NCBI GenBank assembly: GCA_965199685.1
Contig: OZ241323.1
Location: 90,619 to 154,618, forward strand
Source: an uncultured candidatus Porisulfidus sp.
Lineage (GTDB): Bacteria > Pseudomonadota > Gammaproteobacteria > Poriferisulfidales > Oxydemutatoraceae
Direction: 5' to 3'
DNA length: 64,000 bases
In this document: positions 30,890 to 33,115 of the stretch, piece by piece
Numbering within the stretch: the stretch's first letter is position 1
Layout of the letters: each line of letters opens with the position of its first letter
Position numbers and translations under genes: made by a program
The notes under the pieces: model-generated
What the model saw: the letters and a program-made list of their open reading frames with translations, nothing else
Database searches by the model: none
What the model was told of the DNA's origin: nothing

Positions 30890-33115
30890 ATGGCTAAAGA
30901 TCGTAGACAAGAAAGTTATCGTATTCGCGAAGAAGCTGCAGAACTTGCGCGCAGTCGTGTTCACCCTATCCATCGGGCTAACGGCGACGAACAGCGTTAT
31001 GCGGATGAACACTACCCGATGAGTTTCACAAAAGGGTTGGAACACGATGAAGAGACTGGGCTGGTAAAAGACCCTGCTCACTTTGAGGCATTTCGCAAAG
31101 CGATTAACGAAGGTTTTATTGATGCGTTTACTGAAAACGTGCCTGTTCCGCCTGTTGCTAAGAGAAGGCAATGGGAAGCTCCGACTGCAGGTTTTGTGTT
31201 TGATCTTGAGGGTCCGGACGCACAAGCTGTCACCATGCCGCCGGCACCTGAGTTGGGTTCAAAAGAACTGACTTTTGAGATGGCAGAAGTCTACGAGTTG
31301 GCACTTGTGCGCGATGTGCCTTTTGCAGTTTTCACAGACAATTCTATTGACGATGATGACCTTGATGATTCTGAAAAGCAAAAGTTAAATGACGCTAAGC
31401 AAAAGTTAATTCCTTATATTGAGCGTCTTAACGCACTATACGGAAAGCATAAAAGCGATCTGAGTCGTCCTCGTATTGATGACGAGGGTGAAATAACGCT
31501 GCAAACCGCTTTTCGCGGTTCGTCTCCTGGTGTTGAAGTAGGTCCTTATCTTTCACAGTTCTTGCTAATAGGAACACAAAGCCCTCGTTTCCCTGGTATT
31601 GCACCTGGTGATGGGAAAATCGTATACGGTGCTCAGCAAATCGACCAAAAAGTTGCTAAGGCGGCAGAAGTAGATTTCATGACGATCTGGGATGAGTGGT
31701 TGTGTGTTCAAAATGGGGAGGACACATCAGAAGATCAAAAATTTATTTTAGGTGGAGCAAGGTTTATTGCAACTCCCCGTGATTTAACAGCCTATGTGCA
31801 TTTTGATGCTCTATATCAAGCATATCTAAATGCCTGTCTCATTTTGCTGGAGATGCAAGCACCGTTTGACCCTGATTTTGGGGCATTGTCTGGCAGCTCT
31901 AACTATGAGCATTTTGGTAGATCTATCCCAAGGAATGCGAATGGTTTTGCATTGTTTGGAGGTCCGCATATTCTAACTTTGGTGACAGAAGTTGCGACAC
32001 GTGCGTTGAAAGCGGTGCGCTATCAAAAATTCAATAATCATTTAAGACTTCGTCCTGAGGCTTTGGCGGCGCGCCTTCAAGCACAAGAACAGATTTCTGA
32101 TAACCATTCTCGTGCTGGGGAGTTACTTAAAAACATGCTTTCCGAGCTTAATGCAACAACCGAAGACATTAAAAAGAAAAATGAGCCTGGTATATTGCCC
32201 TTAACCGAAGACATTAAAGAGAAAAATAGGCTTGGTATATTGTCCTTTGAAGAATTATATAAGGAAGAACTAGAAGCTATTAAAGGTGTTGTTGATTCTG
32301 TTATAGATGAAGAGCATGACTCTAATGATACCATTTGCAGCCGAATCATTGAGAATATCCGAGAGCCGATACAATCTATTATTGGGGTTATTAACGAAAA
32401 TATTGGGGAATATCTATCTGATCCAGGGGATATCCTTGAAGTTGTTGGTGATCTAATAAAGGGTTTTATCGGCGTTAACATCAACATTAATATTGGCAAT
32501 TGTTGTAAGGATAAAAAAGCTAATGAGCAAAAGGCTAATGGTATTTATGAAGTAATACGCAAAGCTATACGCCAATTTATTAGAAAGGAATTATCACCTC
32601 ATATTGAGGAAATCGATCAAGACAAAAAAGATAAATTGCCTTCCTCTATACTCCTACCCATGGCTTTCCCGGAAGGTTCACCCATGCATCCTGCTTACGG
32701 GGCTGGTCATGCCGTTGTTGCAGGAGCCTGTGTAACTATTCTGAAAGCGTTTTTCGACACTAGTGCTACTTTTGTAAATGATGGAAAAGTAAATGGGATT
32801 TTTAAGCGCAAGGGACCAGGAGATATACCAATAGCATATGCTCCTGCACCCAATGGTAATCGCCTTATACCTAACTTACAGGAAACAGAACCTCTTACTC
32901 TTGAGGGCGAATTAAACAAACTCGCGGCAAACATTTCTATAGGTCGTAATATGGCAGGAGTGCACTTCTTCTCAGATTACTACGATAGCCTGCGCATGGG
33001 TGAGGAAATCGCAATTGGAATACTTGAGGAACAGGCACTGACATACCCGAAAGATGATTTTGTGTTTTCAGTGCCGACTTTTGATGGTCCAGTACGACGC
33101 ATTGGTGTCAAATAA
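30890..33115 (+). CDS. PAP2-superfamily / vanadium-dependent haloperoxidase-like protein (741 aa)
   Basis: Active-site motifs are K-x7-RP (KFNNHLRLRP), P-x-Y-G-x-GH (HPAYGAGHA) and R-x5-H-x3-D (GRNMAGVHFFSD). No signal peptide. Large low-complexity insertion (residues ~400-560). Confidence 0.6.
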   Translation: MAKDRRQESYRIREEAAELARSRVHPIHRANGDEQRYADEHYPMSFTKGLEHDEETGLVKDPAHFEAFRKAINEGFIDAFTENVPVPPVAKRRQWEAPTAGFVFDLEGPDAQAVTMPPAPELGSKELTFEMAEVYELALVRDVPFAVFTDNSIDDDDLDDSEKQKLNDAKQKLIPYIERLNALYGKHKSDLSRPRIDDEGEITLQTAFRGSSPGVEVGPYLSQFLLIGTQSPRFPGIAPGDGKIVYGAQQIDQKVAKAAEVDFMTIWDEWLCVQNGEDTSEDQKFILGGARFIATPRDLTAYVHFDALYQAYLNACLILLEMQAPFDPDFGALSGSSNYEHFGRSIPRNANGFALFGGPHILTLVTEVATRALKAVRYQKFNNHLRLRPEALAARLQAQEQISDNHSRAGELLKNMLSELNATTEDIKKKNEPGILPLTEDIKEKNRLGILSFEELYKEELEAIKGVVDSVIDEEHDSNDTICSRIIENIREPIQSIIGVINENIGEYLSDPGDILEVVGDLIKGFIGVNININIGNCCKDKKANEQKANGIYEVIRKAIRQFIRKELSPHIEEIDQDKKDKLPSSILLPMAFPEGSPMHPAYGAGHAVVAGACVTILKAFFDTSATFVNDGKVNGIFKRKGPGDIPIAYAPAPNGNRLIPNLQETEPLTLEGELNKLAANISIGRNMAGVHFFSDYYDSLRMGEEIAIGILEEQALTYPKDDFVFSVPTFDGPVRRIGVK

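What the first reader, a model, noticed from the sequence alone, without database searches (positions are those of the whole stretch)
30890..33115. PAP2 / vanadium-haloperoxidase-like 741-aa protein embedded in the paralog array
All three catalytic signature blocks of the acid-phosphatase/vanadium-haloperoxidase superfamily are present in the right order: KFNNHLRLRP, HPAYGAGHA, GRNMAGVHFFSD. They sit on a protein much longer than typical bacterial PAP2 enzymes, with a ~160-aa low-complexity insertion and no signal peptide. Vanadium haloperoxidase-like proteins are uncommon in bacteria. The superfamily assignment is established knowledge; whether this protein is a haloperoxidase or a phosphatase is inference.
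Basis: partly seen in the sequence, partly recalled or inferred. Interest (0 to 1): 0.55.

Follow-up and report, generated by a model that had tools for sequence, protein, structure and literature searches.

The report
Vanadium bromoperoxidase with orphan helical insertion
This gene encodes an ordinary-looking bacterial vanadium-dependent bromoperoxidase, from a large and common marine enzyme family, that carries an unusual, fast-evolving ~150-residue helical module found only in a handful of close relatives.

Summary

The extra length is one insertion (residues 432-585, nt 32183-32644) in a linker that is 39-60 aa in the other 112 aligned homologs. Only eight proteins from two metagenome assemblies carry it. 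It is predicted to form four helices, is AT-rich, and has no homolog among 1.84 billion representatives. It evolves 2-10 times faster than the core (dN/dS 0.3-1.1 vs 0.11-0.20). It is absent from an orthologous gene (P0007) whose closest relative has it.

Best reading: an active bromoperoxidase carrying a dispensable, lineage-specific helical excursion. This is a modest curiosity, not a new enzyme type.

The parts
30878..30883 (+). AGGAGG ribosome-binding site, 6 nt before the ATG
   Evidence: Read directly from the sequence.
30890..33115 (+). Vanadium-dependent haloperoxidase (bromoperoxidase-type) CDS, 741 aa
31334..31414 (+). Small acidic/helical expansion (residues ~149-175, DNSIDDDDLDDSEKQKLNDAKQKL). 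The full version is shared only with P0002 among the close relatives; P0004 has a shorter one.
   Evidence: Alignment A1. Segment F145..R193 is 47 aa here against a median of 31 in 120 homologs.
32018..32020 (+). Arg377, three residues before the catalytic Lys. Equivalent to AmVHPO Arg425, the halide-specificity position (Arg = bromoperoxidase-like).
   Evidence: Alignment to 5lpc/8q20/8q21, where the R425 mutants differ at exactly this column. Role of R425 from PMC11871015.
32027..32056 (+). Motif 1, K380-x7-R388-P389 (KFNNHLRLRP): catalytic Lys and vanadate-binding Arg
   Evidence: K380, R388 and P389 are invariant in 120 homologs. K380 aligns with AmVHPO Lys428.
32158..32247 (+). 45-bp tandem duplication (2 copies, 88-89% identical) encoding TEDIKKKNEPGILPL / TEDIKEKNRLGILSF. 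It straddles the 5' edge of the insertion and is present only in the window, P0002 and P0003.
   Evidence: Tandem Repeats Finder, the repeat finder D1, alignments.
32183..32644 (+). Clade-specific insertion (residues 432-585). It is AT-rich (GC 0.34 vs 0.455 in the core) and predicted to form four helices: 450-473, 479-505, 513-530, 542-574.
   Evidence: DNA alignment with insertion-free L082 breaks at 32182/32645. Composition. AF2 secondary structure, pLDDT mostly 76-94. Linker length 176-205 aa in the 8 carriers against median 45 (39-60) in the other 112 homologs. No homolog outside the clade in 1.84e9 representatives.
32546..32647 (+). Last helix of the insertion and the junction (residues 553-586), resembling helix 1 of the acyl-CoA dehydrogenase N-terminal domain. 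Suggestive only.
   Evidence: Pfam PF02771, 18.1 bits against cutoff 22.9, E=0.0037. 5 of 8 insertion sequences hit it. 55% identity over 38 aa to metagenomic ACADs. hhalign probability 92.9% over 26 columns. Against: no ACAD recovered from the PDB with the insertion profile.
32687..32713 (+). Motif 2, H600-PAYG-A605-G606-H607-A608: second-sphere His (AmVHPO His513) and the (S/A)-G-H acid-base histidine
   Evidence: H600 and A605 invariant, G606 and H607 >=90% conserved in 120 homologs. Alignment to 5lpc. His513 mentioned in PMC11871015.
32942..32977 (+). Motif 3, G685-R686-x5-H692-x3-D696: vanadate-binding Arg and the vanadium-ligating His
   Evidence: R686, H692 and D696 invariant in 120 homologs. 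Aligned with GRDWAGVHYFTD of 5lpc.

Best explanation
The gene encodes a cytoplasmic vanadium-dependent haloperoxidase of the red-algal/cyanobacterial bromoperoxidase type, in an uncultured marine-type gammaproteobacterium. By homology it should work as follows. Vanadate is held by His692 (covalent ligand), Lys380, Arg388, Arg686 and the Ala605-Gly606-His607 turn. H2O2 forms a peroxovanadate. Bromide or iodide attacks it to give hypohalous acid or an enzyme-bound equivalent, which halogenates nearby organic substrates or consumes a second H2O2. Arg377 at the position three residues before the catalytic Lys predicts bromide/iodide rather than efficient chloride oxidation. The extra ~150 residues are a lineage-specific insertion in a normally short linker between motif 1 and motif 2. 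The insertion folds as a separate Ile/Glu/Lys-rich four-helix excursion joined by flexible linkers. It is a tolerated and largely dispensable decoration, not part of the catalytic machinery. It probably grew by local duplication and capture of AT-rich DNA. Shown: family membership, fold, residue conservation, and the insertion's boundaries, distribution, rates and loss. Inferred: activity, halide preference, surface location and dispensability.
Against: No biochemical data; activity and halide preference are inferred by homology only. The model coordinates could not be inspected, so the position of the insertion relative to the active-site tunnel or to the dodecamer interfaces of AmVHPO/Corallina enzymes is unknown. 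The insertion ends only ~15 residues before His600, so an effect on the substrate channel is not excluded. Insertion dN/dS <1 in the window's subgroup, plus 18 invariant (mostly Ile) positions across carriers, show some constraint, which a purely neutral passenger would not need. The Ser of the classical P-S-G-H motif is Ala here, although this holds for the whole family including the active A. marina enzyme.
Confidence: 0.75

Rival explanations
1. The insertion is a functional module, not a passenger. For example, it could be an Ile-rich coiled-coil or four-helix element that changes oligomeric assembly, docks a partner or carrier protein, or caps the substrate tunnel to confer substrate selectivity.
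For: dN/dS 0.31-0.51 (<1) in the window subgroup. 18 invariant hydrophobic positions across carriers that are only 30-40% identical. Amphipathic helices with 3-4 hydrophobic spacing. The insertion ends 15 residues before His600, which lines the tunnel in AmVHPO, and the AmVHPO active site is shaped by two subunits (PMC11871015). It is retained at three different genomic loci.
Against: It is absent from P0007, whose closest core relative P0006 carries it; both loci share the same downstream gene. dN/dS is ~1.1 between P0008 and P0009. No homolog elsewhere. Constraint on hydrophobic core positions is expected for any inserted segment that must fold to avoid damaging the host enzyme.
Confidence: 0.2
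2. The protein acts as a phosphatase (PAP2-type acid phosphatase chemistry on the same active site), not as a haloperoxidase.
Against: The closest relatives by a wide margin are characterised bromoperoxidases. The Pfam PAP2 model does not match. The full two-domain VBPO architecture is conserved, including the ~390-residue N-terminal part absent from phosphatases.
Confidence: 0.05
3. The insertion has disabled the enzyme. The gene would then be a decaying or non-catalytic paralog, kept among several VHPO copies in this lineage.
For: The lineage carries multiple VHPO loci, and one contig has two copies. P0006 appears N-terminally frameshifted. The gene sits in a transposase-rich, rearranged region.
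Against: Core dN/dS is 0.13-0.20 between insertion-bearing genes, and every catalytic residue is intact. There is a strong RBS. The frame is intact in all 8 carriers.
Confidence: 0.05
4. The insertion is a mobile or self-removing element (intein, MITE/IS remnant, intron) and not part of the mature protein.
For: Distinct base composition (GC 0.34 vs 0.455). Presence/absence polymorphism.
Against: No terminal inverted repeats or target-site duplication. No other copy in the window or related loci. No Hint/intein or transposase family hit. The junction residues (…KKKN|EPGIL … KLPS|SILLP) lack the intein Cys/Ser…His-Asn-Cys/Ser/Thr signature (read from the sequence). Length varies in multiples of three with the frame preserved.
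Confidence: 0.02

Closest known systems
Acaryochloris marina vanadium-dependent haloperoxidase (AmVHPO; PDB 5LPC, 8Q20-8Q22)
   Same: Full-length homolog: E=4e-129, ~51% identity over 549 columns. Same catalytic Lys, the Arg three residues before it, the second-sphere His, the G-A-G-H-A turn (Ala rather than Ser), and the Arg/His of motif 3. Foldseek E~1e-34.
   Different: AmVHPO has ~54 residues between the aligned blocks (chain 471-525) where this protein has 188 (residues 397-584). AmVHPO has an extra N-terminal-region segment (chain 118-160) that this protein lacks. Its dodecameric assembly is not established here.
Corallina pilulifera / C. officinalis vanadium bromoperoxidases (PDB 1UP8, 1QHB, 8VGX)
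   Different: Eukaryotic (red-algal) enzymes of 595-598 aa with no insertion at the motif-1/motif-2 linker.
Bacterial 'vanadium-dependent haloperoxidase' family of marine Alphaproteobacteria, cyanobacteria, Planctomycetota and others (e.g. Loktanella sp. S4079, Leptothoe spongobia, Synechococcus)
   Same: 55-62% identical and collinear, with the same invariant residues.
   Different: 575-610 aa, linker 39-60 aa. None carries the four-helix insertion.
PAP2 / class A non-specific acid phosphatases and lipid phosphatases (PhoN 2A96, PgpB 6FMX, LpxE 6EBU)
   Different: 10-19% identity. The Pfam PAP2 HMM is below threshold or absent. These proteins are ~200 aa or membrane proteins, lack the N-terminal half, and catalyse phosphate-ester hydrolysis rather than peroxide-driven halide oxidation.

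Membership tests
Vanadium-dependent haloperoxidase, algal/cyanobacterial bromoperoxidase type | Significant full-length sequence homology to biochemically characterised members | tested here: met
   E=4e-129 (5lpc), 8.5e-108 (1qhb), 8.4e-106 (1up8), 2.3e-39 (1qi9). ~51% identity over 549 columns. The family profile hits only VBPOs.
Vanadium-dependent haloperoxidase, algal/cyanobacterial bromoperoxidase type | All-helical two-bundle VHPO fold | tested here: met
Vanadium-dependent haloperoxidase, algal/cyanobacterial bromoperoxidase type | Vanadate-binding set: Lys, Arg (motif 1); (Ser/Ala)-Gly-His (motif 2); Arg and the ligating His (motif 3) | tested here: met
   K380, R388, A605-G606-H607, R686 and H692 are present and aligned with 5lpc, and invariant or >=90% conserved in 120 homologs. 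Spacings K-x7-R, H-x6-H and R-x5-H match algal VBPO numbering as I recall it (Lys341/Arg349, His411/His418, Arg480/His486 in A. nodosum). The 3D geometry could not be inspected.
Vanadium-dependent haloperoxidase, algal/cyanobacterial bromoperoxidase type | Bromoperoxidase-type specificity residues (Arg three residues before the catalytic Lys; extra His near the vanadate) | tested here: met
   R377 aligns with AmVHPO R425 and H600 with H513 (PMC11871015).
Vanadium-dependent haloperoxidase, algal/cyanobacterial bromoperoxidase type | Vanadate-dependent oxidation of halide by H2O2 | not testable with these tools
   Needs an enzyme assay (MCD or thymol blue with Br-, I-, Cl-).
Vanadium-dependent haloperoxidase, algal/cyanobacterial bromoperoxidase type | Homo-oligomeric (dimer-based, dodecameric in AmVHPO/Corallina) assembly that forms the substrate pocket | not tested
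   Only a monomer was modelled.
PAP2 superfamily (Pfam PF01569) | Match to the PAP2 profile HMM above the gathering score (27.2 bits) | tested here: not met
   No hit at E<=1 or E<=10 for this protein. Insertion-free homologs P0007 and P0034 score only 14.3 and 15.0 bits.
PAP2 superfamily (Pfam PF01569) | KX6RP - PSGH - SRX5HX3D signature | tested here: inconclusive
   A variant form is present: K-X7-RP, P-x-Y-G-A-G-H (Ser replaced by Ala), G-R-X5-H-X3-D. The order and the catalytic residues are conserved, but the strict pattern is not.
PAP2 superfamily (Pfam PF01569) | Shared catalytic helical-bundle fold | tested here: met
Intein / mobile element (for the insertion) | Hint-domain splice junctions; or terminal inverted repeats with target-site duplication; or multiple copies | tested here: not met
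   No Hint or transposase Pfam hit. No TIR or TSD. Single copy. The junction residues lack the intein signature (sequence).
Acyl-CoA dehydrogenase N-terminal domain (PF02771), for the last helix of the insertion only | Profile match above the gathering score (22.9 bits), or independent recovery of ACADs | tested here: inconclusive
   16.6-18.1 bits, E 0.004-0.011. 5 of 8 carriers hit it. hhalign probability 92.9% over 26 columns to a metagenomic ACAD. But the insertion profile recovers no ACAD from the PDB at E<=10.

The most novel reading that the evidence does not exclude
The insertion is a recently born protein module caught in the act. It would have been assembled inside an enzyme's surface linker from local tandem duplication, AT-rich formerly non-coding DNA, and a captured 5' fragment of an acyl-CoA dehydrogenase gene. 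This would be one product of a lineage-wide process that also grafted isocitrate-lyase and transposase N-termini onto unrelated proteins in the same window. The module is now polymorphic (gained or lost) and evolving rapidly, and may be acquiring a role in assembly or substrate gating of the haloperoxidase.
Probability: 0.15. Interest if true: 0.6.

Novelty: new variant of a known kind. Interest (0 to 1): 0.33.

Why it matters
The enzyme itself adds little: bacterial vanadium haloperoxidases of this type are abundant in marine genomes. It is one more candidate source of brominated or iodinated volatiles, or a peroxide sink, in an uncultured gammaproteobacterium. The useful part is the insertion. 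It gives a natural series of closely related enzymes with and without a 150-residue orphan helical module, placed between two catalytic motifs of a biotechnologically used halogenase scaffold. That series shows where the scaffold tolerates large insertions, which is useful for engineering. If the fragment-capture origin holds, it is also a tractable example of how new protein segments arise in a genome prone to gene-fragment shuffling.

Tried and rejected
(1) NCBIfam scan: no family.

(2) Local Pfam scan did not report PF22778 (VCPO_2nd), although the precomputed annotation lists it for all homologs. I treated this as a discrepancy between tools, not as evidence.

(3) Word-index homolog search with the insertion alone returned nothing, not even the parent protein, so it is uninformative. 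It was superseded by the exhaustive profile search.

(4) The exact-product look-up for the window's own protein failed, and its genome is not among the species representatives. The organism is therefore placed only by EF-G: 93% to a 'Chromatiales bacterium' MAG and ~76% to other Gammaproteobacteria.

(5) The first AF2 run with 19 sequences was too poor to use (pLDDT 49).

(6) The AFDB fold library was unavailable.

(7) P0242, the only non-clade hit of the insertion profile, is a repetitive junk ORF.

(8) Derivation of the insertion from the native linker: no similarity (z=-0.3). Internal helix-helix similarity is weak (z up to 3.8) and could be compositional.

(9) Mobile-element and intein origins were rejected.

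(10) The antisense ORF 32077-32499 (-) is interrupted in the orthologs, so it is an artefact.

(11) Promoter/terminator scan: nothing above shuffled expectation.

(12) Literature search for the sample accessions found nothing.

(13) ACAD-fragment origin of the last helix: tested four ways with mixed results. It is kept only as a lead.

Full report
OBSERVATION. The ORF at 30890-33115 (+) is real: 741 aa with an ATG start. An AGGAGG sequence lies 6 nt upstream. The N-terminus is strongly charged and no segment reaches transmembrane-like hydropathy, so 'no signal peptide' is consistent with a simple hydropathy check.

WHAT THE PROTEIN IS.
- Pfam gives no PAP2 hit at E<=1 or E<=10 for this protein. 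It gives only 14-15 bits (cutoff 27.2) for insertion-free homologs. NCBIfam gives nothing.
- In contrast, phmmer against PDB sequences gives E=4e-129 to the Acaryochloris marina vanadium haloperoxidase (5LPC), ~1e-106 to the Corallina bromoperoxidases and 2e-39 to Ascophyllum VBPO.
- Identity to the A. marina enzyme is about 51% over 549 aligned columns.
- A profile of 120 family members retrieves only vanadium bromoperoxidases from the PDB.
- With a deep alignment the AlphaFold model is confident (pLDDT 87.3, pTM 0.88). Foldseek's 12 significant hits are all VHPOs.

So the superfamily link is real at fold level, but the protein is specifically a member of the algal/cyanobacterial bromoperoxidase family.

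ACTIVE SITE. K380, R388, H600, A605, R686 and H692 are invariant, and G606 and H607 are >=90% conserved, in 120 homologs. From the alignment to 5LPC and its R425 mutants, and the residue roles in PMC11871015, K380 corresponds to the catalytic Lys428. R377 corresponds to Arg425, the halide-specificity position; Arg there is the bromoperoxidase state. H600 corresponds to His513. The 'Ser' of the classical PSGH motif is Ala throughout this family, including the active A. marina enzyme. The haloperoxidase-versus-phosphatase question is therefore answered as well as sequence can: the best-supported function is vanadate-dependent oxidation of bromide or iodide by H2O2. Activity itself was not testable.

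HOW COMMON IS THE FAMILY. 5750 of the 8000 scored candidates have E<=1e-10, and most are 575-610 aa. Where the source gives a name, it is 'vanadium-dependent haloperoxidase', in Rhodobacterales, cyanobacteria, Planctomycetota, Desulfobacterales and others. A narrow peptide-pattern scan of species-representative genomes gave 125 confirmed relatives. The statement that such proteins are uncommon in bacteria does not hold for this family.

ORGANISM AND CONTEXT. EF-G in the window is 93% identical to one from a 'Chromatiales bacterium' MAG and ~76% to other Gammaproteobacteria. The window's own genome is not among the species representatives.

The gene does sit in a paralog array. At least ten copies of an unannotated ~140-aa four-Cys domain are present. 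Some are fused to an isocitrate-lyase-like N-terminus plus a TM helix, and they are interspersed with transposases. The arrangement Sel1-repeat paralog - VHPO - short paralog is conserved at 85-94% DNA identity in two metagenomic contigs, L084 and L085.

THE INSERTION.
- Location and size: PDB homologs align to residues 4-396 and 585-734 only. DNA alignment with an insertion-free ortholog (L082) breaks at 32182/32645.
- Rarity: in 120 homologs the linker between R395 and L588 has median 45 aa (39-60), except in eight proteins with 176-205 aa: the window, P0002-P0006, P0008 and P0009. The seven relatives come from just two ENA assemblies; the window's own source could not be traced.
- Structure and composition: it is predicted as four helices (450-473, 479-505, 513-530, 542-574; pLDDT mostly 76-94) tethered by low-confidence connectors. 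It is Ile/Glu/Lys-rich and only mildly low in complexity. It is AT-rich, with GC 0.34 against 0.455 in the core.
- Orphan status: a profile of the eight insertions, searched exhaustively against 1.84 billion representatives, finds only the clade's own representative plus one junk repeat.
- Not a mobile element: no inverted repeats, no target duplication, no second copy, no intein features.
- Local duplication: a 45-bp tandem duplication at 32158-32247 sits at its 5' edge. P0002 has a further small duplication nearby. So the linker grows at least partly by local duplication.

IS THE INSERTION TRANSLATED AND CONSTRAINED? Only the VHPO frame is open in all eight carriers. The chance of 153 open codons at this composition is ~1.6e-6. 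Nei-Gojobori dN/dS is 0.11-0.20 for the core in every pair. For the insertion it is 0.31-0.51 within the window's subgroup and 1.12 between P0008 and P0009. Those two are 89-90% identical in the core halves compared but only ~40% in the insertion. Eighteen positions, mostly Ile, are invariant. This pattern fits a folded helical excursion whose hydrophobic core is maintained while everything else drifts.

IS THE INSERTION DISPENSABLE? On a core-only tree, insertion-free P0007 pairs with insertion-bearing P0006 at 98% bootstrap. P0004, P0006 and P0007 share the same downstream lipoprotein-like gene. In the core, insertion-free P0007 and P0010 are as close to carriers (84-94%) as carriers are to each other, while carriers P0008 and P0009 are more distant. 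The simplest history is one gain followed by loss, or recombination among paralogs. One contig carries two insertion-free copies. Either way the enzyme persists under the same purifying selection with or without the module.

AN UNEXPECTED LEAD. A metagenome scan with the insertion profile returned four loci that are acyl-CoA dehydrogenase genes, not VHPOs. The match is their N-terminal helix: ACAD 'LIRKAIRDFVKKEVSPIIEE…FPSFLLP' against the insertion's 'VIRKAIRQFIRKELSPHIEE…LPSSILLP', 55% identity over 38 aa. This agrees with a sub-threshold Pfam Acyl-CoA_dh_N hit (18.1 bits against 22.9). That is the only family hit by several insertion sequences, 5 of 8. hhalign gives 92.9% probability over 26 columns. 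However, the insertion profile recovers no ACAD from the PDB at E<=10, and the ACAD targets were pre-selected by a 9-residue pattern. I regard fragment capture as possible (roughly one in three) and not shown. It would parallel the isocitrate-lyase and HTH_Tnp_1 N-terminal fragments fused to unrelated domains elsewhere in this window.

VERDICT. The protein is a new member of a well-known and abundant enzyme family, distinguished by a clade-restricted, orphan, fast-evolving four-helix insertion between catalytic motifs 1 and 2. The insertion is most likely a tolerated, dispensable decoration. A role in assembly or substrate gating is not excluded, because its position relative to the oligomer and the tunnel could not be examined. 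Interest is modest.

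Noticed in passing
window 18383-45300 (e.g. 19650-20534, 23771-24664, 27678-28550, 34843-35727, 43282-44229 on +; 18383-18958, 33579-34118, 39675-40364 on -; 20983-21552, 25142-25690 on +): At least ten paralogs of an unannotated ~140-aa domain with four invariant Cys (DGGFIICTK … VLELVSNEEGCYF … PCPxN…C … ATYVEAEFL … FIEMG). Long forms carry an N-terminal ~57 aa resembling the start of isocitrate lyase (PF00463 positions 3-57, E~1e-3, sub-threshold), then a TM helix and an acidic linker. 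Short forms have only a hydrophobic leader. The Sel1-repeat protein at 29127-30773 uses the same ICL-like N-terminus plus TM.
   Followed up: partly
window 4724-6784 (+) and 7572-9833 (-): Two large proteins that fuse a transposase HTH_Tnp_1 N-terminus (E 1e-15 to 1e-17) to long TPR arrays. This is another case of a gene N-terminal fragment grafted onto repeat proteins in this genome.
   Followed up: no
window 32546-32647 (residues 553-586 of the VHPO): The last helix of the insertion resembles helix 1 of the acyl-CoA dehydrogenase N-terminal domain (55% over 38 aa to metagenomic ACADs; Pfam sub-threshold; hhalign 92.9%). No ACAD was recovered from the PDB with the insertion profile. Possible captured gene fragment.
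   Followed up: partly
L086 1168-2952 (-) and 8001-9749 (+): One metagenomic contig carries two insertion-free VHPO paralogs (P0121, P0010) about 5 kb apart, among integrase and transposase genes. The lineage therefore has several VHPO copies per genome.
   Followed up: partly
L081 10363-11931, L082 9862-11409, L088 2773-4401: A conserved ~515-542-aa gene with no Pfam hit and a lipoprotein-like N-terminus (…INAC / …ISAC) lies directly downstream of the VHPO at one locus type. The L081 and L082 copies are 40-42% identical; the L088 gene is inferred from its position and size and was not aligned. The gene is absent from the window. L081 also has an animal-haem-peroxidase gene (13483-14988) and three FGE-sulfatase genes nearby.
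   Followed up: partly
L088 528-779 and 776-2662: P0006 starts at residue ~84 of the family, and an 83-aa ORF overlaps its start. This is probably a frameshift, either real or a low-coverage (3x) assembly error.
   Followed up: no
window 32077-32499 (-): A 140-aa antisense ORF overlaps the insertion. It is broken by 2-7 stops in the orthologous loci, so it is an artefact of the codon composition.
   Followed up: yes
window 15472-17474 (+): SCO1/SenC and a di-haem cytochrome c peroxidase (CCP_MauG) lie ~13 kb upstream of the VHPO. They follow pntA/pntB (11777-14718). This is another peroxide-handling enzyme in the neighbourhood, with no evidence of linkage.
   Followed up: no
whole protein (tool behaviour): Precomputed annotations list PF22778 (VCPO_2nd) for every homolog, but the local hmmscan of the same sequences never reports it, even at E<=10.
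   Followed up: no
P0002 (L084 6663-9035), linker region: P0002 has an extra in-frame duplication (KNMLSELNA repeated) next to the 45-bp duplication shared with the window. It also has further small insertions elsewhere (790 aa in total). The gene family appears prone to slippage-type expansions.
   Followed up: no
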